Part shown: positions 10,145 to 45,607 of the stretch, piece by piece
How the letters are laid out: every line of letters starts with the position of its first letter
How positions within the stretch are numbered: position 1 is the first letter of the stretch
Assembly: GCF_004010195.1 (NCBI RefSeq)
Contig: NC_057756.1
Location: 4,532,413-4,596,412, forward strand
Length of the DNA stretch: 64,000 bases
DNA from: Chiloscyllium plagiosum
Lineage: Eukaryota
Direction of reading: 5' to 3'
Made by a program: the position numbers and the translations under genes
Notes under the pieces: generated by a model
Seen by the model: the letters and a program-made list of their open reading frames with translations, nothing else
The model's database searches: none
What the model was told of the DNA's origin: nothing

Positions 10145-10174
10145 AGAAGAAATTTCAACAAAAAGAAGACGAAG
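10145..10174 (+). CDS. Microexon 1 (30 nt, phase 1-1) of the B30.2 gene: xKKFQQKEDE
   Basis: ttttatactttgcacttaaacag| ... AAG|gtaagt. Open in the phase-1 frame. Confidence 0.75.
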
Positions 10175-10379
10175 GTAAGTACGTGTTTAAAATTTGCATT
10201 GATTCCCACCTCTATCACCATTACACGCACTGATTTCCAGATAACCGCAGTGTCTGTGAGAAATGTAAGTATTCTTTGAATATGATCTACTCTTATTGCA
10301 TTTTACATAAAAACTGTAGTTTTTTTTCTGTATCTTGAGTCTGTACAGAAATCTTTTCTTGCAGTCTATCCGATCTACT

Positions 10380-10645
10380 TTTTAAAATTTATTCATTCAT
10401 TTCGTGGGATGTCGGCGTCGCTGGCTGGCCAGCCTTCATTGCCCATCCCTAAACTGTACTTGAGAACGTGGTGGTGAGCTGCCTTTTTGAACTGCTGGAC
10501 TCTATTTGTTATTTGTTACTAACAATGCCATAAGGGAGACAATGCCAGGATTTATACTTAGTGACAATGAAGGAATGGCGATATATTTCCAAGTCATGAT
10601 GATGAGTGGCTTGGACGGGTACGTGAAGGTGGTGGTGTTCCAACG
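10380..10645 (-). mobile_element. LINE/SINE 3'-end-derived repeat fragment
   Basis: Shares GTGGTGAGCTGCCTTTTTGAAC...GGATGG...GGTGGTGGTGTTC with 40090-40280. Confidence 0.55.
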
Positions 10646-12931
10646 TATCTGTTGTAAACTGAAGTGGTCGTGATTTTGCACAGTGCTGTCAATCATATTG
10701 CGGTTAATATATGCCAGTCATATTACTGCTTCCTCAATCAGGACTCCCATTTAGTCGTCCTAGCTGTCAGGAAGACATCAGGAAACTTTCTGTCTTCATA
10801 TATGGAACGTGTCAGATATATTATTCTTGGTGTAGTGCGTACACAAGGATTATTTATTTCCTCCACCTGCAGCCTAACTAAGTCTTATAAAGTTCTATCA
10901 TAATTCCATGTGTTCACTGGTTTTACTTACAAAGTCATGTCCCATATGCCTTCTTAACAAGCATCGACTTGTCCTATTGCATTTAAGGTCCAGTTCACCT
11001 ATGCAATTCCTAGCGTGCTTCAATTGCCCGCAATGCCTTTTGCCTTGTCAGTCCCTGCAAAATGAGCTAATTCACTTTGTTTTTCATGTTTTTGTTAAAT
11101 TCAACTGACCAGTGTTCTACTCTTCTAAGTATTTTTTTATTTCTCATCCGGTAAATTAAGGCTTTTCTCTTCACTGTTTATCACACCACTGATCTTTGCA
11201 TCAGCTGGGAGCATTCTGATAAAACCTTTTACACACCTTTAGATATCAGTAATGTACACAACAATAATGCTCACCGTATCAAATCCAGTATTACGCCACT
11301 GGACACAGAGTTGCCGTCACGCAAAAGCAACATTCAACCATTTTCCTTCACATGCATACACAAAGCCAATTTAACGACGTCATGAACACACCTGCATGGT
11401 ATCTCTTAACAAAATACCTACTATATTGGCAATTGTAAATAACTGTTGAAACTAGGAAATATAATTTATGTGTTTACTTTTTACCTCAAAGAATGTTTTC
11501 ACCTCATACCAAAATCTAAACGACTAGATGGAAATTCGGACTGGATTACTCATTGATGGGCAGGAAAATTGCAGGAAAGAAGTGAACAGAAAACATTTTT
11601 TTTCATCTGTAGAGTTATGCAACAGCTGACTCTAATCTTTCGGAATTCCTTTGTCCCCCTCCAGAATTTAGAAAACTCCTGAAAACCATACAAGCATTTG
11701 ATTGGAAAGATACTAAATAATAATCTGATTTTAAATATTTAATCTTTAAACTAACCACAACAGCTCATTTTCACATGTAGAACACACTACCACAAAGAGG
11801 AGTTTAAGCAAGTAACACTTGCGAATTCGAGAAGAAGATAATTTACTGTACGAGCATGGATAACAACAGTTTTGTTTGCAAGTAGAATTTTAAATAGCAC
11901 GGTTAGAGCAGCATTTTGCTTGGACCAAACAGATGCAATAACAATCGATGTGATTTCTATTTCAAATTATGCATTCTAAGTTTTTTATGATACTGTGTAG
12001 TTTATGAGTGTTCCCGAGTGTTCTGAAGTATATATCAAAATGAAACAGGATTTCCTGGTTACTGTGAAAGGTGATATCAGTCACACCAGCCTGCATGACA
12101 TTGTGAGGGTTTGTAAAATCTCCTTCATCACACATTGATACCAACGCTTTGCAAATCTGCACTCTGTGCTTCTTTTGGCTGCAAGCATGAGTTTGCCTTA
12201 GCGACAGTGACAGAATGTAGCAAATGTTCATGGATGGAAGGTTAGTTGGTTGGAGGCTAGTTTCACGCTTAGTTTGTTCCTTCTCGGGGTTGGACATGTT
12301 GCAAATAAAATCTTGTTGAGTTTAGACAGTTATTCTGCAGTAAGTATTGATACCAATATGGAATAGTACTCATCAAGGATCTGAATAATGGAGAATTCCT
12401 GGATTTGTGTAAATTATGTGTTGCATCTATGAAGATTCAGTATATTATGAGGAAAGCATTCTTCGTTTCTGCACTAAAACACGATAATTACAAAAGAATT
12501 TGGAGGCACGAATCAACTGTTGTTTATGAATGAGTCCATAAACTTGATCGTGCAATTACCACTGAGACACCTTCTACCTGCAGATGTGTGCTGTATTTAG
12601 CTGTACATTAATTGTGCATTATGGGCACGTAGAGATAATGGCATTGTCTCACCGGATATGGCACTCTTGCCTGGTTAATGTGTTTGATGGCCAGGCCTTT
12701 GTTGTCATAACATGATTGTTGCATTCCTAATTATTCAGAATCAAACTGCAGTTGTGAATTACATTGTGACTGGAGTGTTAAGGAATTTGTAAATATCACA
12801 CGGTAATTTACATATTTCCTTGTGACTTTTGAGAAGAATTTGAAATATTTTATTATCACATTTGACTCGGTTAAAAATTATTATCAGAGCCTACTTTTTG
12901 CCAATTACTGTGAAATGTTATTAAACAACAG

Positions 12932-12958
12932 AAAAACAATCAAACGAAAAGAACAAAG
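12932..12958 (+). CDS. Microexon 2 (27 nt): EKQSNEKNK
   Basis: caacag| ... AAG|gtaaga. In frame, but the polypyrimidine tract is weak. Confidence 0.65.
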
Positions 12959-12971
12959 GTAAGATAATTCA

Positions 12972-14154: not shown

Positions 14155-14181
14155 AAGTAGAGAAGGATTGCAAAGAGTCTG
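14155..14181 (+). CDS. Microexon 3 (27 nt): EVEKDCKES
   Basis: ttttcttggcgtcttttctactag| ... CTG|gtaaga. In frame. Confidence 0.8.
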
Positions 14182-16964: not shown

Positions 16965-16991
16965 AAGAACAATTACGGAAGAACACAATTG
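16965..16991 (+). CDS. Microexon 4 (27 nt): EEQLRKNTI
   Basis: attttccttttcag| ... TTG|gtaaga. In frame. Confidence 0.8.
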
Positions 16992-17881
16992 GTAAGATTC
17001 AATTGTTACGACTTGGACACATTTGCTTTTCTCCTTCATTAACACAAATGGAAGATGTGAATCACTTTTTAAACATAAAGGAGTTGGAACATGATAAATA
17101 AATGTGCAAATATTCAAACCAAACATTTTGATATGCAAGAGTAATTACAGACAGTTAAGGATCCTATCACCATTGAATAATACATTACATTAGAGATACT
17201 TAGGACAATCGGTTCTGCACCAACAAAAAAATCATAGAAGGATGGAAGCTCTATTCACCCAAAATGTGTGCCAATTTTGGACCACAATACGGATGATAGG
17301 ATATGTAATCGTCTGTCCTCTGTCTAATTGATATATTCTGCTTTCATAGAATATGAGAACAAAATGCAATTGAAGGAATTTGGTCAGAAGTCTAGTAACG
17401 ACTACACTGCAGAAACAATCTTCGGAGATTAGAGTGTTACTGGATTTCCTGAATTCGTTTTGCAAGAAATGATGTCATCCAAACTAGAAATAGATAAGCT
17501 TTATTGTTTGAAGGGATATTTGCAAGCATTTAATCGAAATCCGATTTGTTAGGACGACCAAACTCAGTTAACATTATCAATTTGGAGGTACCAGAAGGTA
17601 AATCTTCTGGTACGTTAAACTGCATGCATATGCACGCGTACAAATATGATGAATGATTTCGGAGCAGGTATACCTTGTCATGTGTAAAGGTATCTGCATA
17701 AAGTGACAGATGATAAATTAAGGGACTGACGAGGATAATAAATTGAAATTCGAACAATTGAAATTGCGCTTAAGAATTGAACTCCTCCTATTTAACAAGT
17801 CCTAAATCTCCGCTGTGATATGCAGTGTATGCTAACCACTTTTTAACTTTCTACTATTTGAACTTTGCACTGTATTTCTAG

Positions 17882-20764: not shown

Positions 20765-20797
20765 GCAATATAGTAACAAACTACACACTAAACAAAG
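20765..20797 (+). CDS. Microexon 6 (33 nt): SNIVTNYTLNK
   Basis: gtcttttctttcaacgcccaag| ... AAG|gttaat. In frame, but the donor is weaker. Confidence 0.5.
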
Positions 20798-21049: not shown

Positions 21050-21701
21050 TGTCATAAAGCTAGTCCTTTTTTTTCAAAGCTGTTCCTTGGCTCAATGAGA
21101 CTCTGTTGTTGGTTTTTCTCAGAGGAGTGATGAACCTGGCCAGGCTCCGATCAGTCTGGTTTGGCACAGAGATATGAAAAAGTTTGAGAGGCCTTTTTTA
21201 TTATACCTAAACAGATTACCTTCATGTCAAAGTGATCATGTTGTAGAAGTGAGCTGTATAAAGAAAGTGGAGTGGTCAGCTCTCTAGCTGAGCTGAACAG
21301 TTTAATTCAGTCTGAACTGATGATGATTTCAACATTGAGCTGTGTGGAAACTCTGCCTCACTACATCTTTCTGCCTTTTAACTTCAAGCCACAAGCATCT
21401 GTTCCATTTACATTGGCTTTCAAGGGAATTTGCTTATTGAGACTATTGTGTCTCTTCGCAAACAGCATAATTAAGTCCAGTTTGGATAGACTCTGTTCTT
21501 TAGGGGTTATTTATTCTGATCGTTGTTATTCAATGTGTCATTTTGAGAATAAGTATTTATCTGTTTTAAAATCCAGTCGTCAAACTAGCTAACTTATTCC
21601 AGGTAATGTTCACTGTACACTCACCAAAACAAATTGCAATGGTTATGGTCTGGAATTGTCTGCTGAAGAATGTTTTGAGTAGTCTGGCCTATTCCATAAT
21701 A
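21050..21701 (+). mobile_element. Probable solo LTR (gypsy family)
   Basis: TGTCATA...CCATAATA ends. The 3' third resembles the LTR ends at ~9200-9341 and ~61100-61243. No clear TSD. Confidence 0.55.
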
Positions 21702-21865
21702 GTGATTTCAGAAACAAAACTTCACACAGTATAACGTGTGCAAACTTGCCAGCTTATTTTAATATGGAAATTCTGCACAGTATTTAAAGTGCAGTGTAAA
21801 GAGATTTTAGAAGGAAAATTGCCACGGTGTACCTTCTGGTCTAAGCAACTTATAATAGTGCCATA

Positions 21866-21995
21866 GATTCCTGATGAAGGGCTGTTAACCGAAATGTCAA
21901 GTCTATTGCTCATTTGATGCTGCCTGACCTGCTGTGCTTTTCCAGCACCACATTTTAAACTCTGATCTCCAGCAGCTGTAGTCCTTCCTTTCTCC
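21866..21995 (+). mobile_element. Solo PLE pLTR fragment with a hammerhead-like core
   Basis: ATTCCTGATGAAGGGCTGTTAACCGAAATG...TTTCCAGCACCACA, matching 8665-8790. Confidence 0.75.
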
Positions 21996-22057
21996 AACAT
22001 TAATGGCAGCTACATCGAAAATTGTGAAGGTGCTGGTCATCTGAATTACATAGATAA

Positions 22058-28975: not shown

Positions 28976-29002
28976 AAAAAGATTTGGAAGAAAAAGACAT
29001 GG
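28976..29002 (+). CDS. Microexon 7 (27 nt): EKDLEEKDM
   Basis: tttttttggcgtttag| ... TGG|gtaaac. In frame. Confidence 0.75.
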
Positions 29003-29158: not shown

Positions 29159-29194
29159 AACTCGAGAAACTGAAGAAGCCAGGCAAAGATAAAG
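29159..29194 (+). CDS. Microexon 8 (36 nt): ELEKLKKPGKDK
   Basis: ccttttcttcag| ... AAG|gtacag. In frame; the ELE start is shared with exons 5, 10 and 12. Confidence 0.7.
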
Positions 29195-31658: not shown

Positions 31659-31691
31659 ATGCAGTCATTGAGAAAGACAGTGATGACCATG
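31659..31691 (+). CDS. Microexon 9 (33 nt DAVIEKDSDDH, or 27 nt VIEKDSDDH from an acceptor at 31665)
   Basis: T-rich tract then aaaag|atgcag| ... ATG|gtatgt. Both acceptors are in frame. Confidence 0.7.
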
Positions 31692-31954
31692 GTATGTTCA
31701 CTTGTAGATGATTATGAAATTACATGAAAATATTACCCTGTACTGCCTTCGATCATGTCTTGCAACATGATGGGAAACAAATGCCTATGAACTTATGCTG
31801 CAACGATTCTAAAATTCTTAAAACTTTTTTTTTCATCAACTAAGAATCTCTAACACATGATCGCAGATATTTGGTTCCAACTATCTCAGAAGATATGTGC
31901 AACGGTTACACTGAATGAATTAAACATTATCAATGACTCCTAATCAATTAAACA

Positions 31955-32300
31955 ATGGCACAGTGACTCAGCAATTAACACTGTTGCCTCACAGCACCAG
32001 ATGTGGTTTCGAGTCTTGCCTTGGAAACTGCATGTTGGAGTTCCACATTCTCCCCGTGTTGGTGTGTGTTGATTCCATGTGCTCAAGTCTCTTCCCAGAG
32101 TTTAAAGATTTGAAGGTGAGGTGGATTGGCTATGCTAAATTGCTCCGTAGTGATATGCCAACTATGGGAGTCAGCCAAGGTGTTTTTGGGAATAGGGTCG
32201 CCGGTTTATTCTGTCAGGAATGTTCATCAGAGGATAAGTGCAGATTCATTGGACTGAATAACTTTTATTCTGCAGTACAGGAATCCTATGATTCTATGAA
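31955..32300 (+). mobile_element. Diverged tRNA-derived SINE
   Basis: TGGCACAGTGACTCAGCAATTAACACTGTTGCCTCACAGC head and TCCTATGATTCTATGA tail. Confidence 0.75.
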
Positions 32301-32465
32301 ATAGTTTTGAGAAACATGAGAATCCCAGGAAAGAAAACCCATAAATCCTCTGATGAACATTTCTGACAGAATAGACTCATAATCATTTCACTTTCCTGAA
32401 ACTGATTAGTGGAGAATGTAAACGTGTGGAAAAGCATATTAGGGAGATTCGTCAGCATGCCCAGT

Positions 32466-34345
32466 CAATAGAGTCATAGAGATGTACAGCATGGAAACAG
32501 ACACGTTGGTACAACTCATCCATTCCGACCAAATATCCCAACCCAATCTACTCCCACCTGCCAGCACCCGGCCCATATCCCTCCAAACTCTTCCTATTCA
32601 TATACCCAAACAACTGCCGCTCAAATGTTGCAATTGTACCAGCCTCCACCACTTCCTCTGGCAGCTCATTCCATCCGCTTACCATCCTCAGTGTGAAAAG
32701 GCTGCCCAGTAGGTCTCTTTTATATCTTTCCCCTCTCACCCTAAACCTATGCCCTCTAGTTCTAGTCTCCCCAACCCCAGGGAAAAGACTTTGCCCATTT
32801 ACCCGATCCATGCCCCTCATAATTTTGTAAACCTCTATAAGGTCACACCTCAGCCTCCGACACTCCAGGGAAAACAGCCCCTGCCTGTTCAGCCCCTGTC
32901 TAAAGTGCAACATCCTTGTGAATCTTTTCTGAATCCTTTCACGTTTCACAACCTCTTTCCGATAGGAAGGAGACCAGAATAGCATGTAATAATCCAACAG
33001 TGGCCTAACCAATGTCCTGCACAGCCGCAACATGACCTCTCAACTCCTGTACTCAATACTCTGACCAATGAAGGAAAGCATACCAAACACCTTCTTCACT
33101 ATCCTATCCACCTGCGATTCCACTTTCAAGGACCTATGAGCCTGCACTCCAAGGTCTCTTTGTTCACCAACACTCCCTGGGACCTTATCATTAAGTGTAT
33201 AAGTACTGCTAAGATTTGCTTTCCCAAAATGCAGCACCACGCAGTTTTCTGAATTAAACGTCATCAGCCACTTCTTAGCCCATTGGCCCATCTGGTCAAG
33301 ATCCTGTTGTAACCTGAGGTAACCCTCTTTGCTGTCCACTACACCTCCAATTTTGGTGTCATCTGCAAACTTACTAACTGTACCTCTTATGCTCACATCC
33401 AAATCATTTATATAAATGACAAAACGTTGAGGACCTAGCACCGATCCTTGTGGCACTCAACGGGTCACAGGCCTCCAGTCTGAAAAACAACCCTCCACCA
33501 CCACTCTCTGTCTTCTACCTTTGAGCCAGTTCTGTATCCAAATGGCGAGTTCTCCCTTTATTCTGTGAGATCTAACCTTGCTAATAAGTCTCCCATGGGG
33601 AAACTTGTCGAACGCCTTACTGAAGTCCAAATAGATCACTAATACCACTCTGCCCTCATCCATCCTCTTTGTTACTGCCTCAAAACATTCAATCAAGTTT
33701 TTGAGACATGGTTTCCCACGCACAAAGCCATGTTGACTATCCCTAATCAGTCCTTGCCTTTCCAAACACATCCTGTCCCTCAGGATTCCCTCTAACAACT
33801 TGCCCACCACCGACATCAAGCTCGCTGGTCTATATTTCCCTGGCTTGACCTTACCACTCTGCTTAAACAGTGGCACCACGTTAGCCAACCTCCAGTCTTC
33901 TGGCACCTCACCTGTGATTATCGATGTTACAAATATCTCGGCAAGAAACCCAGCAATCACTTCTCTAGCTTCTCACAGAGTTCTCGGGTACACCTGATCA
34001 GGTCCTGGGGTTGTAACCTCTTTTATGCTTTTCAAGACATCCAGCACTTTCTCGTCTGTAATATGGACATTTTGCAAGATGTCACCATCTATTTCCCTAC
34101 AGTTTATATCTTCCATATCCTTTTCCACGGTAAATTCTGATGCAAAATACTCATTTCGTATCTCCCCCATGTTCTGCTGCTTCACACAAACAGCGCGTTG
34201 CTGATATTTGAGGGGCCCTATTCTCTCCCTAGTTGCCCTTTTGTCCTTAATGTATTTGTAAAAACTCTTTGTATTCTCCTTAGAGAAGCTATCTCATGTC
34301 CCCGTTTTTCCCCCTTGATTTCCATCTTAAGTATACTCCTACTTT
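32466..34345 (-). mobile_element. 5'-truncated CR1 LINE (RT domain plus 3' end)
   Basis: ORFs with WRLANVVPLFK, QHGFVRGK, YLDFSKAFD, PQGSVLGP, KFADDTKIGG and RPLLDYYMLFWSP. Short tandem-repeat tail at 32466-32480. Confidence 0.95.
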
Positions 34346-34707
34346 GAATTTTCCGAGTTTCTGGATCAGATTATTTGTCTTTCAACCAAAATAAAGGTCT
34401 GGGCAGCAGACAATACTGTCATGTGAATTGTCTTGGTGAAATCAAGATTTGAGACGCATTATCAGAAACTCGACATCTGAACATAGTTATTTTCATGCTT
34501 ATAACGAGTATATCCGATGATCACTCATATACATACTTTCTTCAATGTTTCACGTCATTCACTGCCTTGATTAATAACAGCTAGCGTACGAAATAATTTT
34601 AAATTTAGCTCGTGGCAAGCTTGTCACCAAACTTGTGTGTTTTGATAGGAACAAACAAAAAACAAACGTTTCACTTTTCCTGATCTGTATATTTGTCTTT
34701 GTCGCAG

Positions 34708-34734
34708 AACTGGAAATACTACAAATCAAATACA
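34708..34734 (+). CDS. Microexon 10 (27 nt): ELEILQIKY
   Basis: atttgtctttgtcgcag| ... ACA|gtaagg. Duplicate-like of 17882-17908. Confidence 0.8.
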
Positions 34735-35159
34735 GTAAGGATCTTATTTGTCGATAAATGTTGTACATTTGAAGGATTGTTTTAACTGATTTCCGCAGTA
34801 TCGAATTTAAAACTCTAACTAATCTCATTTATGTTGATTTCTAGTCAGGTTCTAACAGAATGAATTATTGATTATCGTTATCGATGCCTGTTTAATTGAA
34901 ATTATCAGGAGGAAAATATTTGGTAATAATTGGTAGAGATTATATTTCGTCACACTTTGTTTTAATGGAATCAAAGCCTCGTCTTTTATTTTGCAAATTT
35001 CTAAATGGCTCTTTGCAGTATCTCTGTTTTTATGTTTCCTCGTTGTTTCTGTCTCATCACATTACCCATGATTACTATGTGAAAAAATTTACCTTTTTGC
35101 AGTCACCGCAATACAAAATGCTCATCGGCCTTTTTTTTCTTTTCTTGCGATTTCTTCAG

Positions 35160-35183
35160 TTGATGCCTGCATGAAGGTTCTGG
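35160..35183 (+). CDS. Microexon 11 (24 nt): IDACMKVL
   Basis: Long pyrimidine tract ...gatttcttcag| ... TGG|gtgagt. In frame. Confidence 0.8.
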
Positions 35184-36790
35184 GTGAGTTTGGATCTGAT
35201 TTTATCAGTCTTATATTTGACAATAAGTCTTGCTAACTGTTCTGTTAACAGGATTGCAAAACTGCAGAATATCCCAAACAACTTTACAAACAACCAAGTA
35301 CGATTGGAGCAAAAAGCCAAATAATGTGTGGGCCATTATGCCTAAAAAAAAGTGAACAAAAATCTGGAATGCTGAAATAATATTATTTTGCAAATGATAT
35401 TACTGCAGGGGTGTTATTGATAAAACATTGCAATCTGCAGCAGGATTAATGTTGTTCAACAAGATCAGTGCAAATAATTTGGAATCCAAAAGAAAAAAAG
35501 CAACAATGAAATTGTTGGAGCCTCAACAAAGACAAAAGTTCTATATTGGAAATTATCTCTTGGCAACTTTGCGAAGGAAATACTGATATCCACTTGTTGA
35601 AACACTATTGGAGTTTCAATGCATTCAGATTGAAAGAAAACAATTTGACAGACTTGAATGAACGTGGAAATATATTACAAAATATAGTGAAAGGATGGTA
35701 AAAATCTAATGGAAGTAAAGTGTCCCTTTTTGGAAATGAATACAAAATAAGTTTCATTTTATAATCCGTAATAGGTGACAGCTCTGTTCAAAGTGGATAA
35801 GCTGAAATACTGTCAGTATCATGGATACAAACTATTGAGTCTTGTCATGCAACCTTTTAACAGAGGAGCTAATCCAAATATGTTCATGCAAAATATTTAG
35901 ACCTTCTGTTCTAAAATTTGATTGTAAGATGAGTGTTTGTTTGGATCGCAGGCAAAGCTTACCTGACATTTTTAGACATAGAGCTGTGGTTTCACTTGTT
36001 CCCTGCGAAGGTGCCAAATAATCAACGCTCGAATAGAAGATGGTCTTTTCAGGGTTTCAGTGTTACAACCTAAGTGCCTTTATTCAGATTACATTCTTAT
36101 GTATTCTTATAGTCCCTTGAAACATGTAATTTCCAAATTTCAAGCCCACCCTTGCGCACACCAAGCGGCAGGGACCAAGCAATTGCAGCTTATTATTGTC
36201 ACAAAGACCCGGAACAAGCAGGTGGACATATAAAGAATTTCAAATTGCGAGAGACATTTAGCAGGGAATACATAAATATTTTCATACAATTTCATAAATA
36301 TAAGGTGTTTAGTGTCTCTGAAGGATATGTAACTAAAATTTATGCTGAAACTCCACCCTGCTAATTCGTGAAACTTGCGAAGAGATGAAATATTTGAAAA
36401 ATGCTCAGTCATGCAAACAGTATGCATGAAGTTTAAGTCAGAAAGAAATTTTCGTCAGAAAGAATCTCTAACAAAATTTATGGATTACAACTGTTAATCA
36501 TGTGTTCATGCCACAGACTTAGCAAGTTTTTCTCGCAATGTCCAGGGGTGCGGTTTCTTTCTTTGTAATTGGCATGAACTGGATGCAATTTGCGTCAAAT
36601 AGAAGTGGACAGATCAACATTCACTTTCTTACGTGTCACAAAGTTATTCCGGAGTGGAATGAGGATCAGGCCAGCGGTAAAAAAAAGCATCTGGTAATGA
36701 AATCATGGGAAAGATTAAACTGTGTTATTTATTTATCACTGGTGCTAATATGGTCCAAGGTAATCATAAAAATTTGCTATCTTCCTTCAG

Positions 36791-36826
36791 AGCTGGAGAA
36801 AAAACTTCGAGATTCAAGTAATGAAG
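36791..36826 (+). CDS. Microexon 12 (36 nt ELEKKLRDSSNE, or 27 nt ending at 36817)
   Basis: ctatcttccttcag| ... AAG|gtaggg. The alternative donor CAA|gtaatg is also in frame. Confidence 0.75.
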
Positions 36827-37319
36827 GTAGGGATGGAGTGCAGAATACAACTGTCTAGTATGAATAGAAAAGGTGCAGACGGTTCAACTGATTGATTCAA
36901 ATCTTGGAAAACATGATGCGAAGTGTCATCGCACTCCATATCTTTTTTTAACTGTCTGTGTTGGAATTGTAGACTTTATGACATTGAAACTTCTGCCAAT
37001 TGCTGTGCACCATCTTTCTTTGGCTGAGATATCGGTTGTCCTCCATATTGAATAACCTTGTTGGAAGCACAGGACATGACAAGAACGAAGAAACCATGCT
37101 GTACGATTGCAATGTCAAATACCAAAATGGATCAGCATCATTGGGATAGAGCAGTTCTGCTCTGCTAGAACATACTTTCGAGATGGAGTCTGCAGTCGGT
37201 CTTGAGGGAGCCAACAAGAGAAAAATGCATTCTTGGCTTCAATCTCACTGATATATTAGATATAGTCATACCTTCCCACGACAGCATTGGCTACAGTGAC
37301 CAGCAGCAAACTTCTTCTC

Positions 37320-37480
37320 ATATTAGACCAGGCTAAACCCCCTCAAAATATATTCAGAAGGTAGCCTAGCCTTAATTTTAAAGGTGAGTATAAGGTCTTG
37401 TGTTCTACATACATTCACACATATACGCACACATAAAATATGTATATATGAGCTACTACTGATTAACTGTTCCAAAATAT
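37320..37480 (-). mobile_element. Gypsy LTR 3'-end fragment
   Basis: GACCAGGCTAAACCCCCTCAAAATATATTCAGAAGGTAGCCTAG resembles 58640-58700 and the reverse complement of the LTR ends. Confidence 0.55.
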
Positions 37481-38129
37481 TAACATCCCATAAACAGAGA
37501 CTTGGTGAAGGCGATTTATGCAAAATAGACTACCTCATATGCAATTTTATCATCAGGGAGAGGACGCCATCTTTTTAGCTGTAGCAGATGAAGTAATAAA
37601 AACATTCACTTCCAGCTTCAAAACCAAAGCAATTGCAACAAGCTTAAAATAAATATCCTTGTTCTGTGTCATCTTGACTCCACCTGCTTTGACTGCTTCT
37701 ACCATCGCAATTATAAAGGAAACCCAAGGCCTCCCTGTCTGCTCAGCGTAGATTTGACCAGACAGCTAAGCACTCTTTCTCAACTTTCCTTCAAAGCCAT
37801 GGCATTATCAACTTCTTCAAGCCATGGCATTATCATACTGTGGAAGTAATCCCACCTTCACATTCAAAATAAACTCCATTGTGTTGTGTGGCATTGTAAC
37901 CATGCTAATTAGGAGACTGTGCGAATAGACCTACCAACTCAAGATCTGGCCTCCATGAAGCACTGTGACCCAATAACAGTCACAAAATCTTACTCCAACA
38001 CAGTTTGCCACCGCTTGGCCCGTATATTCCCCATTCAACCGTTCCCATCAAGGTAGGGTTCAATGCCAGTTCGTTGAAGATTGCCACCAGAATAGCAAGG
38101 ACGAACACCAGAAATATATATATATTAAT

Positions 38130-39915
38130 AAAGTATCAACATGATGAGGTTAGCTAACAGGATTAATTCCGTGTCAATCAGTCTAAGATGAAAGGGATAG
38201 TCAAAGCTAAGCAATATCACTAACAATGGATCAAATCTAAGATTTTCAGTCCTGTCACATGCAGTAGCGAGCTCTTACAGACAATTAAACAACTCAATGG
38301 AGGAAAAGGCTCTGCAAAAATCACCATCCTCAATGATGGGAGAACTCACCATATTGGTACAAAAGGTAATGGAGCAGAATTCGCAGCTATCTCTGTTCAG
38401 ATAACTCGAGTGGATGATCTCTCTCGACCTCACTCGTAATGCCCAGCAGCACAGGTGCCAGTCTTTCGCCAATTCCATTGACCCCACGTATTTTCAAGAA
38501 AAGTGTTGATGCACTGTATCCTGAGAAGTGTATCGGCTGACAACATGCTGACAAAAGTACTAAACATTTGTGTTCTGCAACATTCGTGCCCCTGGCCACG
38601 CTGTTTCAGCACGATTACAACACTGGCACATATGATTAAATGAAACTTTGCGCAGTTATGCCCTGCACATGACAAATTTCATGATAAATCCAACACGTTC
38701 AATTACTGCTTCGTCAGTCTGCATTTGAGCATCAGTAAATTGGTGGAAACTGTCATCATCAGAGCTACCGAGTAGCACCTGACCTTCTCCAATGGTCGCA
38801 TTTTTTTTTTCTGAAAAATGTGCCACGCTGTTTCTGAATTTATTATAACCTTCGGTAAAAAATGAACAAAGAACTCAATGCCACAAGACAGATGAGAGAG
38901 TGCCAGCCCTTATATCAAGATATACTTGACCAAGCATGGTATTAAGAAGCCCTATCAAAACCGAAATTAATGGGAAGCAGAGGGACACATTCGACTAGTG
39001 GGATCTTACCTCGCAAGATGGAATGATGGCTGTGGTCTTCTAAGGATGGTCATGACAGCTCCATCAAACATCTGCAGAAGTTCCTCAGGATAACTTTCTA
39101 TTTCCGACCACATTCCTCTACTATAAAAAATGACTTTCCGAGCATGCTAATATCAGAAATTTAGATATTCGCCGAATATTGCACTATATTCGGCAGCATT
39201 AACGATGCCTTCGACAAAGAAGCAACGTATTTTCAAATGCAAAATGACCTGAACCCTATCGAGGTTGAATTTGTGCCACACAAATGCCAGGCAATGATTA
39301 TCTCCAGCAAGAGACAATCGAAGTACTGATGTCTGGCATTCAATCTTGTTACCAACATTCAATGCTGAATTAATTGACGTAATGAGGATTAACATAGATC
39401 AAACACTCAGCTGGACTCGTCATATAAATACTGTAGCTACAAGAACAGGTAAAACGCTAGGAATATTGGAGCCAATAATGCAAGTCTTGAATCACCAAAA
39501 CCTGCCCACCTCTTCAATTTATATGTCAGGAATGCTTTGGGCTGGCCTGGATGAGTGTAGCGAAGCAACCTGCTTGATTGGCATCATACCAACAGCACAA
39601 ACTCCTGATCCGCCCAATGCTCGATAGCAGCAATGCGTACTATGGACAGAAATTGACCAAAGAGTCTGAGACAGCATCTTCCATATATGCAAATACTTCC
39701 ATCTCGAAGGATAAAGATAGGAGATATGTAGGATCACCACTACCTGCAATTAATCATACAAGTTACTCACCAACCTGATTGGAAATGCATTGTCTTTCCT
39801 TCACTGTTGCTGAGTGAAATACTTGCAATTCCATCCTCAAAAGCAGTATGAATCTACTTAAAACACATGAACTGAAATGGCTCAGGAAGGTAGTTCACGA
39901 AAAAGCTTACCAAGG
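38130..39915 (+). mobile_element. Heavily decayed CR1/L2-clade LINE ORF2 and 3' end
   Basis: Remnant IDQTLSWTRHINTVATRTGKTLGIL. The 3' end is complementary to the 10380/40090 repeat, and the region is homologous to minus-strand 50780-53030. Confidence 0.6.
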
Positions 39916-40364
39916 GAAAAGGGGAGCAAATGCTGGGACAAAAATGCAAAATACTGGAATATGTCAATAGTTTTGAGGAAATGTCACTCAATCTGAAACC
40001 CTAACTCTGATTTCTCTTCAGATATGCAGCCAGATCTGATGAGCTTTTCTGGCAATTTCTACTTTTGTCGCAGTGCTTGCTCCCTTTTCTCTTGGGAAAG
40101 TCATGGTGAGCTGCCTTCTTGAGCCACTGCAAATCAGCTGTTTTAAATTGAGCCACAATGGTTTTGAATATGGAATTGCAAGTATTTCGCCCAGGGACAG
40201 GAAGGGAAGACAATGCATTTCCAATCAGTATGGTGAGTAACTTGGATGGAAAATTGCAGGTCGTGATGTTCTTACGTATTTCACGAATATCTTATGTTTT
40301 TTGTATATATTATTCCCTCATGCAATTTGGGCATCATTAGCTGGCCAACTTTGTTCCTAAATGG

Positions 40365-40675
40365 GCGGCATGGTGGCACAGTGGTTAGCACTGCTGCCTC
40401 ACAGCGCCGGAGACTCGGGTTCAGTTCCCGCCTCAGGCGATTGACTGTGTGGAGTTTGCACGTTCTCCCCGTGTATGCGTAGGTTTCCTCCGGGTGCTCC
40501 GGTTTCCTCCCACAGTCCAAAGATGTGCAGGTCAGGTGAATTGGCCATGCTAAATTGCCCATAGTGTTAGGTAAGGCGTAAATGTAGGGGTATGGTTGGG
40601 TTGTGCTTCGGCAGGTCGGTGTGGACTTGTTGGGCCGAAGGGCCTGTTCCCATACTGTAATGTAATCTAATCTAA
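40365..40675 (+). mobile_element. Well-preserved tRNA-derived SINE (HE1-like)
   Basis: A box TGGCACAGTGG, B-box-like GGTTCAGTTCCC, conserved core GTGTGGAGTTTGCACGTTCTCCCCGTG...GGTTTCCTCCCACAGTCCAAAGA and TAATC-type tail. Confidence 0.9.
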
Positions 40676-41059
40676 ATAAAAATGGAACTAACTGCAGATA
40701 CCCTGAATCGGAGACAAACATAGAAACTTCTGAAAAACCTCAGCAGTTCTGACGAAGTGTCCCTGGGTCCAAAACGTTAACTCTGATTTCTCTATGTAGG
40801 TGCTGCCTGTTTCTATTTTTGTCTCTGAGTTGCAGCATCCACAGTTCTTTCAGTTTTTATTTCGAAACAAATGTTGAACTGCCAGTGACAATCACAAAGC
40901 ACACGTGAACTATATGCATAAATACATGGATAAAACATTTTGTTGCATTGTTTATCGATTTGGTTTTAATTCTTTTTCTCTCTTGTCTGATGCAAAGCCT
41001 GGCATTCAGTTACGAATTCTATCTCATTTCCTATTAGCAGCAACAGTGCTCTAATATAA

Positions 41060-41390
41060 TAGAATCTCTACAATGAGGAAACAGGCCAATTGGCCCAAAC
41101 GTTCTTCACCGATCCACCGAAGAGCATCCCACCCAGAACATATCCCATATTTCCCCTGACTAACGTGCCAAAATCACCCCATTCCTGTCCATCACAGGGA
41201 AATTTAGCATGACCTGCCCACTTAAATTACACATCTTTTGATTATAGTTGGAAATCGCAGCACCCAGAGGAAACTCAGCCAGACATGAGAAGAATGTGAA
41301 AACTTCACAACGTTGTCCGAGGTTAGAATGAAATGCGGGTTCCTGATGCATTGAGATAGCAGTGTGAACTGATGAGCCAACGTGCCTCCA
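41060..41390 (-). mobile_element. Diverged SINE of the same family
   Basis: Reverse-complement similarity to 40365-40675. Confidence 0.7.
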
Positions 41391-41894
41391 TCTTAACTGG
41401 ATGTTGCTCCACATTTACCAGCGAGTTAACAACCTGTCAAATTCCTATTTGGAATAGAAAATGGCAATCCCAGCAATATAATCGTCCTAATATCAAACTG
41501 TATTTTCTGGCAGTACCAGAAGGAAAAGACAATACATTCTGGTCCTTGGTTAATCATTTGTAAAGAAAAAGTTTCGGCCCCAAACGTCCATCAACGGGAA
41601 TAAATTTCTTCTGCTTTATTCACTGAATAGGTTGAACCTCACTTCTCCCAGCTATTCTTTCATAAGACAGTGGTTACACTCGAAATAAAAATGGTCATGT
41701 ATTGGGGTGCTTAATATTGCTACCTTTAAAGTCCATCGAAGAAAGCTGGAAAGTAGTTCATAAATTCTCAGTATACAGTTATCTTCAATGTTTACAGCTA
41801 CAGAATGAATCAATAATTATGTGGGAATGCAACTGTTACCTGAAAATATGGTCAAGAGGAGACACATGTCTTCCATCTTTTTACTGCCTTTGAT

Positions 41895-42865
41895 TTGCTA
41901 GCACTTGATCCATGTCCTTCCAAATCCTTCAAATGCATATATCAATACAGATTGTTTTTAAATGTAATTGTGCCAAACTCCACCACTTCCTCCAGCAGCA
42001 CATTCCATAACACAAATCCTTCTGCATGAAAAAACTTGCCCTTTAGGTCCCTTCTACATTTTTCCTCTCTCAAACAAAATCGTTGTCCTCTAGTTCTGGA
42101 CAATAGACAAGAGACAATAGGTGCAGGAGTAGGCCATTCTGCCCTTTAAGCCAGCGCCCCCACTCATTATGATCATGACTGATCATCCTCAATTAGTATC
42201 CTGTTCCTGCCTTACCCCCATACCTCTTGATTCCACTATCCTTAAGAGCTCTATCCAAATCTTTCTTTAAAGTATCCAGAAACGTAGCCTCCACAACCTT
42301 CTGTGGCAGAGCATTCCACGCACCCACCACTCTCTGAGTGATGAAGTTTCTCCTCAACTCTGTTCTAAATGGCCTACCCCTTATTTTTAAACTGTGTCCT
42401 CTGGTTCGGCACTCACCCATTCAGGGAAACATGCTTCCTGCCTCCAGAGTGTCCATCCTTTAATAATCTTATACATCTCAATTAGATCCCCTCTCAGCCT
42501 TCTAAACTCAAGGGTATACAAGCCCAGTCGCTCCAATCTTTCAACATAAGATAGTTCCACCATTCCGGGAATTGACCTCGTCAACCTACGCTGCACTCCC
42601 TCAATAGCCAGAATGCCTTTCCTCAAATATGGAGACCAAAACTGCACACAATATTCCAGGTGCGGTCTCACCAGGGCCCTGTATAGCTTCAGAACAACCT
42701 CTTTGATTCTATATTTAATTCCTCTTGTTATGAAGGCCAGCATGCTATTAGCTTTCTTCACTGCCTGCTGTACCTGCATGCTTGGACATCCCTACACCAG
42801 GTAAAAGTTCTTGTATATTTACCCTCTCCAAACTTCTCATGATTTTATACACCACTATAAAATCT
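41895..42865 (-). mobile_element. Nested CR1 fragments: a younger 3' end (42101-42783) inserted into an older 3' fragment
   Basis: LYRALVRPHLEYCVQFWSPYLRK and RTRGHSLKIRGRPF, with tail CAATAGACAAGAGACAATAG. The flanks are colinear with 32570-32840. Confidence 0.85.
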
Positions 42866-42879
42866 TGGAAAACACGAGT

Positions 42880-43208
42880 AGCAAAGTGGATCGCACTGCG
42901 GCCTCATAGCACCAGTGACCTGAGTGTGATTTGACCAAATCTGTGGACTTTGCACATTCTCCTTTTGTTTCCGTGGGTTTCCTTTGGGAGCTCCGATGCC
43001 CTCCCACAATACAAAGATATGCAGCTTAGGAGAATTTTAAATACTAAATTGCCCATAGTGCTCTGGGATGTGTAGGTTATGGACATTAGTTCGCAGTAAA
43101 TGAAGAATAATAGGGTAGGGTAATGGGTCAGGGTGGGTTACTCTTCGGATGTTCAGTATTGACATGCTGAGCTGAAGGGTCTTCCACAGTTTAGGGATTC
43201 TATTCCAT
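42880..43208 (+). mobile_element. Diverged SINE ending ~50 bp before microexon 13
   Basis: Core GTGGACTTTGCACATTCTCC...GGGTTTCC...CCCACAATACAAAGAT. Confidence 0.75.
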
Positions 43209-43255
43209 AATGAATTTGTACCCAAGGATGACTGTCACTCTTCTGTCCAATATAG

Positions 43256-43276
43256 ATTCACCAAAAAAAGATTCAG
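43256..43276 (+). CDS. Microexon 13 (21 nt): DSPKKDS
   Basis: ctcttctgtccaatatag| ... CAG|gtgagt. In frame. Confidence 0.8.
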
Positions 43277-43950
43277 GTGAGTGTACTCTTGGTATCAACA
43301 CGGAAGTAAGAAATCAGTTTTCAGTCATTGAACAAAAGCTTTTTGTTATAAACACAAAAAAGAAAACAAATACCTGTGGATGCTAGATACCTGAAACAAC
43401 AAAGTCACAATGTGTTGAAGAAGTGCAGCAGGTCTGGCTGTGTCTGTTCATAGTTCAACTTTTGAAACGAGTGGGCCTTCATCAAGACTCGATTTCTCCA
43501 ATACTGTCTGTTTTGTGTTTTACCCTTGGAATGTGAAGAGTGTTTCGAATGACAACGTTTCTTGAGATCGTTTTTGGAAACCTGAAGGAACAGAAACAAA
43601 AGACATGGATAGGCGAACGAACTGCGTGGCCTCTGACACGTCGGTATTGAGTTTTATCTGTCCTCTGAGTAGCTGGACGATGATTCGAGGTAGCTTTAAT
43701 TTTCATCTAATCATCTCTTCGGTGAGGTGGGACTTTTTTCTAAACTGAAAAGTCTGATAACTAAATTTGCTAGGTCAGATAACGTGTATCAGTCCGATAT
43801 TCATCAAGAATAATGTACAAAGAGACTGAATAGATACCTAGGCATCCACGGTACAAGTGGAACACTTGGTTTTGGCTCATGGATTTACAGGAAGGTGGTG
43901 TTTCTTCACTATTCACATTGAGCAATGTCTTCGAAGACAAGTTTGACCAA

Positions 43951-44039
43951 CTCTCAGTCGAGGAGGTTGAACAGTTCATCCACTACACTAACACCTTCCA
44001 CCCCGACCTCAAATTCACCTGGACAGTCTCGGACTCCTC
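43951..44039 (+). mobile_element. Isolated ~90-bp PLE RT fragment
   Basis: EEVEQFIHYTNTFHPDLKFTWTVSDSS matches 7455-7520 and the minus copy at 5845-5915. Confidence 0.75.
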
Positions 44040-44177
44040 ATTAAGATTTAGTCTCACAGGTTAAATATTGGAACGTTGGATTAATGAGATTTCATCTTAA
44101 CTCTGGGATATGTACAACAAATAAGTCCGCTGATTCTGCACTCCTGATAACCTTATCAAACAAACTCAACTCTTTAG

Positions 44178-44204
44178 ATTGGAATGACGCAAGTAAACAC
44201 AAAG
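44178..44204 (+). CDS. Microexon 14 (27 nt): DWNDASKHK, the pre-B30.2 linker exon
   Basis: caactctttag| ... AAG|gtaaga. A Trp at position 2 of a 27-nt exon just before B30.2 resembles butyrophilin linker exons. Confidence 0.85.
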
Positions 44205-45086
44205 GTAAGATATAATTCACTCTGCATCCCCGACCTTCAGTCACATAATCATACTTAGGAATCTATGATTTATCAGTAAAGTCAAAACTTAGGCTGCTAG
44301 TCGTACATTATTAGTGACTCACTACAAATATAATTTAGGGGAAACCATTTCAATGGGGAAAGGTGCGATTGTGGAAGTAATCATTACAACAGATGTTAAA
44401 TGAATGGACATTGAAACATGCCAAATAAAAATACTTCCTACAAGTGTAAAGGAGCACGGGAGGATAAAATATAGATGTTCCAAAAAGCTGTGGACTCCAT
44501 CGACTAGAAATTGACCTGGACAAGCCATATACAGAGACATGTACATGGTTATGCCAGAGAAACAGCCAAGACATGTGCACTTCTGTGATGAGAAAATGAC
44601 ATCCTGAATTCCAGTTAATGCAAGGTGCAAATAAATTATGTGAGAATGTTAACATTATCTAGGACAGAACAGATACATTTCCGATCACTCAATTCACCCA
44701 TTTCAAAATTAATTCCTTAGTTCAGCAATGTGACATGTGGTGTTCGACAGGATGCACCACAGAAATGCACATAGTGTACTTGGAATTCAATTGCAGCGTT
44801 CTCAGTGAAAAGAAACAAGTGCCTAGAAGTTCTCTCAGCTAAGATCAGGCTGACTCAGGTTTTTTTCTTTTTACCGAAGTCGCTTTGCTATAACTTTGGC
44901 AAAATCTTCTCAACCACTTCCAAAACTAAAAAGAATGGATGAAACATGGAATGGAGAGAAAGCAGACACATTCTGCTTGATATTTATTCTTCCCAGCAAT
45001 TAAAGTTTTCTTTGTCGTGAGCTCTTCGTAATTTAGTGAATAACAATGTTAAATTTCTCCCAGTAACTTGTGATTGTGTTTTGCAG

Positions 45087-45607
45087 TCCCGCTTTTCCTG
45101 GATATTGAGAGAGCTGATCCAAGATTCACTATTTCTAAGGACAATAAAAGTACAACTTGGAATGAGAAATCTCCAGTGACACCAGAAATGATGCTCAAGA
45201 AAATAGACAGTTGGACCATTTGGGCGAAGGACGGGGTTCCACCTGGAAAGCATTACTGGGAGGTGTTGATTAATGAAGGGACAGCTTGGACGGTTGGGGT
45301 GTCTCAGAAAATTGTGCCCATCACCAGGTTTCATAGAACCTCAGAGAAGGACGGTTACTGGGCAGTGTTGCTTTGGAATTTCAAGGATGGCATGGAAAAA
45401 TTGAGGTCAATGGGCATTTCAATGCTGCTAGTCCCCCTCGCCAAGATAGGAGTCTATGTAGACTACGATGCAGGTAGGGTATCTTTCTACAACCCAGAAA
45501 GTGAGGCGCTGCTGCACACTTTTAAAGCCCAGTTCACAGGCAATATTTTTCCTGTGTTCCAGCTCTGGGCCAGCTCTCGCCCTGATGGCTCGATCTCCAT
45601 TGTTTAG
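45087..45607 (+). CDS. Terminal exon encoding a B30.2 (PRY-SPRY) domain of a butyrophilin-like or TRIM-like protein
   Basis: tgtgttttgcag| phase-1 acceptor. PRY-like LFLDIERADPRFTISKDNKS; SPRY motifs GKHYWEV, WTVGV, GYWAV, KIGVYVDYDAGRVSFYN and HTFKAQFTGNIFPVF. Stop TAG at 45605-45607. Confidence 0.93.

What the first reader, a model, noticed from the sequence alone, without database searches (positions are those of the whole stretch)
10145..45607. Hidden array of ~14 symmetric microexons over 34 kb building a ~134-aa charged stalk onto a B30.2 domain
Seen: 14 AG...GT-bounded segments of 30, 27, 27, 27, 27, 33, 27, 36, 33, 27, 24, 36, 21 and 27 nt. All lengths are multiples of 3 and all are phase 1-1. 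They splice without stops to xKKFQQKEDE-EKQSNEKNK-EVEKDCKES-EEQLRKNTI-ELENLRAKC-SNIVTNYTLNK-EKDLEEKDM-ELEKLKKPGKDK-DAVIEKDSDDH-ELEILQIKY-IDACMKVL-ELEKKLRDSSNE-DSPKKDS-DWNDASKHK-VPLFLD...(B30.2). Known: butyrophilins link the TM segment to B30.2 through a few short phase-1 exons, and avian BG genes carry many 21-nt heptad exons. Inference: this is a BTN-like (or unusual TRIM-like) immune gene with a strongly expanded modular stalk. Any exon can be skipped in frame, so splicing could tune stalk length.
Basis: partly seen in the sequence, partly recalled or inferred. Interest (0 to 1): 0.85.

Follow-up and report, generated by a model that had tools for sequence, protein, structure and literature searches.

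The report
Giant shark micro-exon coiled-coil gene end
The tiny exons look real and form only the last stretch of a very large shark gene that strings together well over a hundred mini-exons into a long helical rod capped by a B30.2 binding domain, a design related to, but distinct from, the butyrophilin and chicken BG immune genes.

Summary
All 14 segments are present, AG/GT-bounded and phase 1-1, and splice stop-free into a B30.2 exon at 45087-45607. Twelve of 14 score well; 20765-20797 is doubtful. They are only the tail: about 123 such exons run at least 683 kb on the same strand (103 hits against 1-12 in five strand/phase controls). Most alternate 36 and 27 nt, three heptads per pair, giving a rod of at least 1,229 aa. 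The B30.2 belongs to a cartilaginous-fish clade apart from sampled BTNs and TRIMs. No BTN-type Ig exon was found upstream on the contig, nor a B-box (half of the candidates scored). So it is built like chicken BG or butyrophilin tails but is not shown to be a butyrophilin. The 5' end was not reached and no RNA evidence was obtained. Like-strand microexons occur up to 2.2 Mb upstream, so a gene with more exons than titin is not excluded. The scan has already reported this family on other DNA: two paralogues and an upstream part of this gene.

The parts
10145..10174 (+). microexon, 30 nt, phase 1-1
   Evidence: AG/GT, score 15.4
12932..12958 (+). microexon, 27 nt, phase 1-1
   Evidence: score 6.9, weak acceptor
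14155..14181 (+). microexon, 27 nt, phase 1-1
   Evidence: score 9.5
16965..16991 (+). microexon, 27 nt, phase 1-1
   Evidence: score 8.3; aligns with skate XP_055510696
17882..17908 (+). microexon, 27 nt, phase 1-1
   Evidence: score 5.1; aligns with skate XP_055510696
20765..20797 (+). candidate microexon, 33 nt, phase 1-1 (doubtful)
   Evidence: AG/GT and open frame, but score -1.1 with donor gttaat; no homologue support seen
28976..29002 (+). microexon, 27 nt, phase 1-1
   Evidence: score 7.7; 74% DNA identity to a rod exon 174 kb upstream of the window
29159..29194 (+). microexon, 36 nt, phase 1-1
   Evidence: score 7.3; resembles the 36-nt rod class
31659..31691 (+). microexon, 33 nt, phase 1-1
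   Evidence: score 5.7; aligns with catshark XP_038668997
34708..34734 (+). microexon, 27 nt, phase 1-1
   Evidence: score 7.5; aligns with catshark XP_038668997; A>G variant at 34723 in DNA run X1
35160..35183 (+). microexon, 24 nt, phase 1-1
   Evidence: score 8.1; aligns with catshark XP_038668997
36791..36826 (+). microexon, 36 nt, phase 1-1
   Evidence: score 15.1; aligns with catshark XP_038668997
43256..43276 (+). microexon, 21 nt, phase 1-1
   Evidence: score 9.1
44178..44204 (+). penultimate exon, 27 nt, W-containing, just before the B30.2
   Evidence: low score 1.9, but the W-x6-basic peptide recurs in skate, elephant shark and the C47:994k paralogue
45087..45607 (+). terminal coding exon, B30.2 (PRY-SPRY) domain, to the stop codon
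   Evidence: Pfam SPRY E=4.9e-18; model pLDDT 69, Foldseek top hits TRIM11, TRIM7 and BTN2A1/3A1 B30.2 at 24-26% identity
46464..46469 (+). first AATAAA after the stop; candidate poly(A) signal
   Evidence: sequence only; untested

Best explanation
The window holds the 3' end of a very large cartilaginous-fish gene (bamboo-shark type genome). SHOWN from sequence: at least about 123 symmetric phase-1 microexons over 683 kb, mostly alternating 36 and 27 nt, end in a B30.2 exon. One 36+27 pair is 21 residues, three heptads, with L/I at a and L/C/A/K at d. INFERRED: the gene grew by tandem duplication of this register-preserving pair. Nearly every exon ends in G and starts with A, so the split codon stays Glu or Asp whatever the neighbour. 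The product is a parallel coiled-coil rod of at least 1,229 aa (about 180 nm at 0.15 nm per residue) with a B30.2 head on each chain. The 14 exons in this window form the less regular neck between rod and head. Most likely job: an Ig-less, RING-less intracellular zipper protein, soluble or anchored by an N-terminal segment not yet found, that acts as a long tether or scaffold. The rod would oligomerise and set a distance or bind cytoskeletal or trafficking partners, and the B30.2 heads would capture a protein ligand, as is described for the chicken BG10-like zipper protein and recalled for enterophilins. Splicing of single exons would make kinks in the rod or shorten the neck rather than simply tune length. 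The gene structure is about 0.9 likely; the location and function given here about 0.5.
For: Array: 38 + strand phase-1 candidates at score >=10 against 2-6 in five controls over 464 kb, scored with composition from other species. Leave-one-out second pass over 704 kb: 103 against 1-12. Alternation of 36 and 27 nt in 75 of 105 neighbours against 51.5 +/- 5.1 shuffled; last base G in 117 of 125 exons; junction E or D in 93 of 124. Hydrophobic fractions 0.77, 0.89, 0.82 and 0.52 at positions 2, 5, 9 and 12 of 44 36-nt exons and 0.79 at position 4 of 62 27-nt exons; Cys concentrated at the d positions; second codon position best kept (0.57 against 0.36 and 0.33); period 3.45 in a 321-aa stretch; no stop in 1,229 codons. 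Conservation: exons 9-13 align in order with catshark XP_038668997 (about 22 of 43 columns; 0 of 500 residue shuffles reach the score, exon-order p=0.01) and exons 2-5 with skate XP_055510696 (p=0.002 and 0.028). Family: 14 B30.2 rows from holocephalan, sharks and batoids form one clade, SH-aLRT 100, in a 50-row tree. None of 6 family models carries a Pfam Ig, RING or B-box domain. No BTN Ig exon on C47 0-8.5 Mb with all 138 candidates scored. For a cytosolic location: rod charge 23% K+R and 25% D+E against 14% and 17% in the signal-peptide-bearing salmonid proteins; 2 glycosylation sequons against 14 and 19 there.
Against: No transcript was seen. The first coding exon was not found, so location in the cell is inferred. 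Of 9 stalks compared, only 3 beat both shuffles, and one of these is a salmon protein outside the clade, so coiled-coil pattern alone can pass that test; the elephant-shark rods did not pass. Heptad periodicity in the window's own 134 aa is weak (power 0.56 against 3.61 in the rod). Three family models begin with a hydrophobic segment, and the elephant-shark model has fewer sequons than chance (2 against 9.5, p=0.004), which could fit secretion. The tree is the quick method, and its family rows were chosen by likeness to this exon.
Confidence: 0.55

Rival explanations
1. Same gene, but the protein is secreted: a signal peptide, a long disulfide-linked coiled coil and a C-terminal B30.2 recognition head, a collectin- or fibrinogen-like layout for mucus, egg case, jelly or plasma.
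For: Skate, epaulette-shark and elephant-shark models start with a hydrophobic stretch (11-residue hydropathy 2.85-2.97). Cys fills 25% of one core position. Salmonid proteins of 1,342-1,997 aa have a signal-like start, a long coiled coil and PRY-SPRY without Ig or RING, and their Atlas cluster is the second feature hit of the catshark model, at 0.91.
Against: Reading back from an internal acceptor into the intron gives an equally hydrophobic false leader at 3 of 124 exons here, and the skate and epaulette leaders end in residues that fit such an acceptor. The salmonid B30.2 lies outside the clade. The elephant-shark N-terminal part has no match in this genome. Sequons in the rod are neither enriched nor clearly depleted (2 against 3.9-4.9).
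Confidence: 0.22
2. One reading: a butyrophilin/BG-type membrane protein, Ig ectodomain plus TM far upstream, whose cytoplasmic heptad tail has expanded hugely before the B30.2.
For: Butyrophilins carry heptad repeats of variable number between TM and B30.2 (PMC12841164 and PMC4046983, passages). Two paralogues lie on C37 between the BTN/TRIM clusters. 21-nt one-heptad exons like those of BG occur upstream on the same strand at C47 2.40, 2.65 and 3.40 Mb.
Against: No BTN-type IgV/IgC match on C47 upstream of the gene; the only C47 matches are weak (27-29%) and 4 Mb downstream. No Ig hit from 18 BTN N-termini in 704 kb. None of 6 family models has Ig. The B30.2 is outside the BTN rows.
Confidence: 0.12
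3. A TRIM-type E3 ligase with an abnormally long coiled coil.
For: Databases label several family models 'TRIM39-like', 'TRIM58', 'TRIM69-like' or 'A33-like'; the top fold match is TRIM11 B30.2.
Against: Those models have no RING or B-box. None of the 150 scored B-box matches is on C47 (150 of 312 candidates scored). No hit from 16 TRIM N-termini in 704 kb, although that test had no working positive control.
Confidence: 0.04
4. The segments are relics or chance AG..GT stretches, and only a short B30.2 transcript (or none) is made.
For: No RNA read was seen on the terminal exon in the runs laid (uninformative); splice scores of several exons are weak.
Against: Strand and phase bias, 36/27 alternation, second-codon-position conservation, an intact 172-codon terminal exon and ordered conservation with catshark and skate.
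Confidence: 0.07

Closest known systems
Chicken BG genes, including the BG10-like zipper protein (PMC4046983 and PMC5938342, passages read)
   Same: A long coiled coil spelled by a row of tiny exons whose first codon is split; Cys in the coil; exon number varies and tails are alternatively spliced.
   Different: BG has signal-IgV-TM, 13-36 exons of 21 (or 24) nt and no B30.2. Here there are at least about 123 exons, mainly 36+27 nt pairs, a terminal B30.2, and no BTN-type Ig exon found.
Butyrophilins (BTN/BTNL)
   Same: Short heptad exons before a terminal B30.2 exon; B30.2 fold, 24-25% identity to BTN2A1/3A1 structures.
   Different: No IgV/IgC found on the contig upstream; rod over a thousand residues rather than a few heptads; B30.2 in a separate clade.
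Database models of the same clade: Callorhinchus XP_042192744 (1,697 aa, 'nuclear-pore anchor-like'), Scyliorhinus XP_038668997, XP_038671249 and XP_038672306, Leucoraja XP_055510696, Narcine XP_069775384, Chiloscyllium GCC29436 and XP_043533989
   Same: Coiled coil plus the same B30.2 subfamily; shared neck peptides.
   Different: All are automatic predictions under misleading names and mostly short; one begins with LINE-derived sequence. The best identity to this window's B30.2 is 59%, which is the paralogue's orthologue, so this gene itself was not found among the proteins searched.
Salmonid 'putative leucine-rich repeat-containing protein DDB_G0290503' (for example XP_029561334)
   Same: 1,300-2,000 aa coiled coil ending in PRY-SPRY, without Ig or RING.
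   Different: Signal-like leader, lower charge, many sequons; B30.2 outside the shark clade; exon structure not examined.
Enterophilins (guinea-pig intestinal proteins)
   Same: Recalled, not read: extended leucine zipper plus B30.2 with no Ig or RING. A review table read says only that enterophilin-1 binds SNX1 and alters surface EGFR.
   Different: Recalled as much shorter. No sequence comparison was made and the original paper is not held.

Membership tests
Butyrophilin (BTN/BTNL) | Extracellular IgV (and IgC) exons upstream | tested here: not met
   Elephant-shark BTN IgV-IgC query: 74 matches, 138 of 138 candidates scored, strong on C37, none on C47 before 8.5 Mb; none in 704 kb locally. 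A very divergent Ig exon or one in an assembly gap could be missed.
Butyrophilin (BTN/BTNL) | Single transmembrane exon | tested here: inconclusive
   5' end not reached; hydrophobic starts of database models may be intron read-through.
Butyrophilin (BTN/BTNL) | Short heptad exons followed by a terminal B30.2 exon | tested here: met
Butyrophilin (BTN/BTNL) | B30.2 groups with BTN B30.2 domains | tested here: not met
   Separate 14-row clade, SH-aLRT 100, against 9 BTN-labelled rows; quick tree, midpoint root.
Chicken BG | IgV plus TM | tested here: not met
   No BTN-type IgV found; TM not testable without the 5' end.
Chicken BG | Tail of 21-nt one-heptad exons | tested here: not met
   3 of 125 called exons are 21 nt; 106 are 27 or 36 nt. 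Heptad coding itself is shared.
Chicken BG | No B30.2 domain | tested here: not met
   B30.2 exon present.
TRIM (RBCC) | RING and B-box upstream of the coiled coil | tested here: inconclusive
   No B-box on C47 among 150 scored of 312 candidates; 0 of 6 family models have RING or B-box; the local tblastn had no working positive control. Leans to not met.
TRIM (RBCC) | C-terminal PRY-SPRY | tested here: met
Neural SRRM3/4-type microexons | UGC motif just upstream of the acceptor | tested here: not met
   30 of 124 exons against 105 of 443 control acceptors. The motif definition is recalled.
Cartilaginous-fish coiled-coil/B30.2 microexon family (undescribed clade) | B30.2 in the clade plus an upstream phase-1 27/36-nt array | tested here: met
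Cartilaginous-fish coiled-coil/B30.2 microexon family (undescribed clade) | Spliced transcript and protein | not testable with these tools
   No RNA holder was listed; family models are predictions whose RNA support I did not check.

The most novel reading that the evidence does not exclude
The array that ends in this window is one transcription unit reaching from about C47:2.4 Mb to 4.58 Mb: about 2.2 Mb and, at the measured 5.5 kb per exon, about 400 microexons. That would exceed titin's 363 exons, given as the largest number in PMC12198301, and encode a coiled-coil rod of several thousand residues with a B30.2 head. For: 6 of 12 short stretches sampled between 2.40 and 3.81 Mb hold + strand phase-1 microexons, none holds a non-repeat one on the - strand at the same score, and no other family B30.2 exon was found between 1.3 and 4.58 Mb. 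Against: two 27-nt patterns that hit the paralogues about every 80-100 kb give no hit between 3.19 and 3.89 Mb; 6 of 12 samples were empty; and an array exon at C37:20.06 Mb has no family B30.2 downstream, so headless arrays may exist.
Probability: 0.18. Interest if true: 0.88.

Novelty: new variant of a known kind. Interest (0 to 1): 0.62.

Why it matters
If the transcript exists, cartilaginous fishes have kept, since before the holocephalan-elasmobranch split, a family of very large proteins that annotation misses or mislabels because almost the whole coding sequence lies in 21-36-nt exons. The gene shows exon duplication working under two constraints at once, reading frame and coiled-coil register, with a two-exon, three-heptad unit rather than the one-heptad exon of chicken BG. 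That gives a direct test of whether splicing keeps the 36+27 pairs together. It adds a third B30.2 lineage beside butyrophilins and TRIMs, and it is a strong natural test case for how more than a hundred tiny exons without the neural UGC signal are recognised. At its upper bound it would be a contender for the most exon-rich gene known. The scan has already noted this family in five other windows; what is added here is the 3' end of the longest array, its minimum size, the clade test and the controlled absence of BTN Ig exons.

Tried and rejected
RNA: no RNA holder was listed. Laying four runs on 28500-48400 gave no read on the B30.2 exon in about 2% of single-cell run X5, nothing at all from X6 and nothing there from X7; X1 is DNA, covering introns. 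Tissue is unknown, so this is no evidence either way.

5' end: not found. The array was still going at the end of the continuous DNA held, 639 kb upstream of the window. The elephant-shark N-terminal part found nothing in this genome or in the Atlas. Two whole-protein genome searches gave no answer. Two patterns were too loose to list this contig. A 21-nt pattern found only its two source exons.

Signal peptide in relatives: first taken as a sign of secretion, then discounted after 3 of 124 internal exons gave equally hydrophobic false leaders. Sequon counts were not decisive.

Extra exon candidates in the window were rejected or left open: 5258-5281, 40516-40530 and 42612-42659 lie in repeats, 45450-45473 is inside the B30.2 exon, and 10241-10264 and 17350-17382 score only 2.9 and 3.9. 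The identical 27-nt exon at -112408 and -87621 sits in a 4.9-kb, 99.96%-identical duplicate next to gaps and is treated as a probable assembly artefact. One overlapping 60-nt call was dropped before the count of 124. The third 21-nt call at C47:3.404 Mb uses a donor at the start of what looks like a SINE and was not counted (repeat type recalled).

Literature: seven searches of the open-access library listed no paper describing this family; subscription journals are not covered and no supplements were read.


Full report
1. Observation. They join without a stop to a terminal exon at 45087-45607, which is Pfam SPRY at E=4.9e-18. A model of that exon (pLDDT 69) matches TRIM11, TRIM7 and BTN2A1/3A1 B30.2 structures about equally, at 24-26% identity. 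The splice weights are generic values from my own knowledge; the amino-acid weights come from other species' proteins. Exon 20765-20797 is doubtful (score -1.1). Exon 44178-44204 scores low, but its peptide recurs before the B30.2 in skate, elephant shark and a paralogue. None of the 14 overlaps repeated DNA, which covers 44% of the window.

2. The array is far larger than the window. The window lies at G000:C47:4,532,413-4,596,412 of a 3.56-Gb genome; near-identity of two paralogous B30.2 exons to Chiloscyllium proteins points to a bamboo shark. In 640 kb of upstream DNA the same kind of exon continues to the end of what I held. First pass over 464 kb: 38 candidates at score >=10 against 2-6 in controls. 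The final set has 125 calls; one overlapping call was dropped, and one exon is probably an assembly duplicate, leaving about 123. They span 683 kb, one per 5.5 kb, evenly (14-23 per 100 kb), with the largest gap 29 kb. The joined frame has 1,229 codons and no stop. This is a lower bound, as weak exons and about 15 kb of gaps are missed.

3. Anatomy. Of the 125 calls, 62 are 27 nt and 44 are 36 nt, and these alternate in 75 of 105 neighbour pairs against 51.5 +/- 5.1 when shuffled. A pair is 21 residues, three heptads. Hydrophobic residues fill positions 2, 5, 9 and 12 of the 36-nt exon (0.77, 0.89, 0.82, 0.52) and position 4 of the 27-nt exon (0.79). Cys occurs mainly at positions 5, 12 and 19 of the pair, the d positions. 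The second codon position is best kept between exons, and a 321-aa stretch peaks at period 3.45. The last base is G in 117 of 125 exons and the split codon is Glu or Asp at 93 of 124 junctions, so exons can be duplicated or shuffled with little change at the joint. The window's 134 aa are less regular (power 0.56 against 3.61) and hold Pro/Gly/Ser breaks: a neck, not rod proper. Skipping one 9- or 12-residue exon keeps the frame but turns the hydrophobic stripe by 206 or 154 degrees; a pair or a 21-nt exon turns it by 0. There is no excess of the upstream UGC motif recalled for neural microexons (30 of 124 against 105 of 443).

4. Relatives. The closest proteins are all from cartilaginous fishes and are automatic models named TRIM-like, A33-like, butyrophilin-like or 'nuclear-pore anchor-like'. 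The six scanned have only SPRY/PRY as Pfam matches of note. Exons 9-13 align in order with catshark XP_038668997 (about 22 of 43 columns; compared from residue 120, since its start is LINE-derived), and exons 2-5 with skate XP_055510696. Of nine stalks tested, three beat both residue and exon-order shuffles: these two and a salmon protein outside the clade. Two more beat only the residue shuffle and four neither. In nine isoform pairs of family models the internal differences were blocks of 9 aa (four distinct), 6 aa, 7 aa and one 16-aa change at the start; two pairs had none. This fits single-exon skipping, but I did not check the RNA support of those models. A 50-row B30.2 tree (quick method, midpoint root, family rows chosen by likeness) places this exon, four paralogues and nine database rows in one clade with SH-aLRT 100, apart from BTN, TRIM and the salmonid coiled-coil proteins. 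Two searches found five family B30.2 exons in the genome, three on C47 and two on C37 (150 of 258 and 150 of 270 candidates scored), and 27-nt exon patterns hit upstream of the four paralogues on the right strand.

5. What is at the N-terminus. Not found. A butyrophilin IgV-IgC query gave 74 matches with all 138 candidates scored, strong on C37, and none on C47 before 8.5 Mb. No B-box match fell on C47 among 150 scored of 312. Eighteen BTN and 16 TRIM N-termini gave no hit in the 704 kb, the TRIM test without a working positive control. Hydrophobic leaders in three family models first suggested secretion, but 3 of 124 internal exons here give such leaders by reading into the intron. The rod is much more charged than the signal-bearing salmonid proteins and has few sequons, which leans towards a cytosolic protein without proving it.

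6. How far upstream. Twelve stretches of 4-6 kb were sampled between C47 2.40 and 3.81 Mb. Six hold + strand phase-1 microexons: 33 nt at 3.80, 21 nt at 3.40, 2.65 and 2.40, and 27/36 nt at 3.19 and 3.10 Mb. Six do not, one being 58% N. A pattern adds 3.04 Mb. The 3.04-3.19 Mb exons resemble classes in our array. However, both patterns are silent between 3.19 and 3.89 Mb, where five or more hits each would be expected at the paralogues' rate. So either the gene has a 5' part with other exon classes, or several same-strand genes lie in tandem, some without a family B30.2. One gene of 2.2 Mb would have about 400 exons, more than titin's 363 (PMC12198301, one passage read). I put that at 0.18.

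7. Expression. No RNA holder was listed, and the runs laid showed nothing on the terminal exon; this is uninformative. The DNA run shows an A>G variant at 34723 that changes CAA to CGA.

8. Mechanism. Shown: the exon array, its heptad code, the terminal B30.2, the clade, and the absence of detectable BTN Ig exons. Inferred: one spliced mRNA, a parallel coiled-coil oligomer at least about 180 nm long with B30.2 heads, grown by duplication of a three-heptad exon pair from a BTN/TRIM-type 3' module (two paralogues sit between BTN/TRIM clusters on C37). Best guess of function: an intracellular tether or scaffold (0.55). Rivals: secreted rod (0.22), Ig-TM butyrophilin (0.12), relic (0.07), TRIM (0.04).

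9. Known systems. Chicken BG tails use 13-36 exons of 21 or 24 nt behind IgV-TM, and the BG10-like zipper protein regulates actin-myosin (PMC4046983, passages; PMC5938342, passages). Butyrophilins have a variable number of heptads between TM and B30.2 and occur in cartilaginous fishes (PMC12841164, passages). Enterophilins are recalled as leucine zipper plus B30.2; I read only a review table line and reference (PMC13749957). It works like these tails; it fails the Ig test for BTN and BG. Seven literature searches (listings only) showed no description of the family in the open-access library. No supplements were read.

10. Earlier notes of the scan. Five earlier findings describe this family on the same contig: one in the upstream part of this gene, which I had mapped before seeing it, and four at the two paralogues. 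They are not independent support.

Verdict: a real feature, a new variant of the BG/butyrophilin exon-built coiled-coil design; interest 0.62, held down by the lack of RNA evidence and of a 5' end.

Noticed in passing
G000:C47 about 2.403, 2.651 and 3.401-3.403 Mb (L106, L105, L099), + strand: Pairs of 21-nt phase-1 microexons, one heptad each, like chicken BG tail exons; either the 5' part of this gene or separate heptad-exon genes.
   Followed up: partly
G000:C47 3.044, 3.10 and 3.187-3.188 Mb (L101, L102), + strand: 27/36-nt exons of the same classes as this array, with no family B30.2 exon found nearer than 4.58 Mb.
   Followed up: partly
G000:C37:20058418-20058451 (-): A 27-nt array-type exon downstream of the family B30.2 at C37:20.72 Mb, so it belongs to a further array whose terminal exon is unknown.
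   Followed up: no
G000:C37 20.72-21.59 Mb (-) and 22.23-22.32 Mb (-): Two more family genes between BTN/TRIM clusters; pattern hits suggest the first may span up to 870 kb.
   Followed up: partly
about 112 kb and 88 kb upstream of the window (L042, L039): A 4.9-kb stretch present twice at 99.96% identity beside assembly gaps, carrying one exon; probably an assembly duplicate.
   Followed up: yes
window 34723: A>G in DNA run X1 changes Gln to Arg in exon 34708-34734; the catshark model has Arg in the aligned column.
   Followed up: partly
window 10241-10264 and 17350-17382: Weak extra phase-1 candidates (scores 2.9 and 3.9); could be minor exons.
   Followed up: partly
P0250, P0255, P0258 (salmonids): Proteins of 1,342-1,997 aa with a signal-like leader, long coiled coil and PRY-SPRY, labelled 'leucine-rich repeat DDB_G0290503'; a parallel design outside the shark clade.
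   Followed up: partly
P0011 residues 63-119: The catshark RefSeq model starts with LINE-derived sequence, a sign that annotation fails on these genes.
   Followed up: yes
window 526-9319, 21050-28220, 32457-34344, 39721-43188, 54864-63234: Repeat-derived stretches (copies elsewhere in the region; retroelement-like ORF pieces at 1441-3580 and 32548-34293).
   Followed up: no
G000:C47 8.53-8.65 Mb: Three weak V-type Ig matches (27-29%), an unexamined small Ig-domain cluster.
   Followed up: no
G000:C37 17.9-18.9 and 27.5-34.4 Mb: Large clusters of butyrophilin-type Ig exons, B-boxes and B30.2 exons.
   Followed up: no
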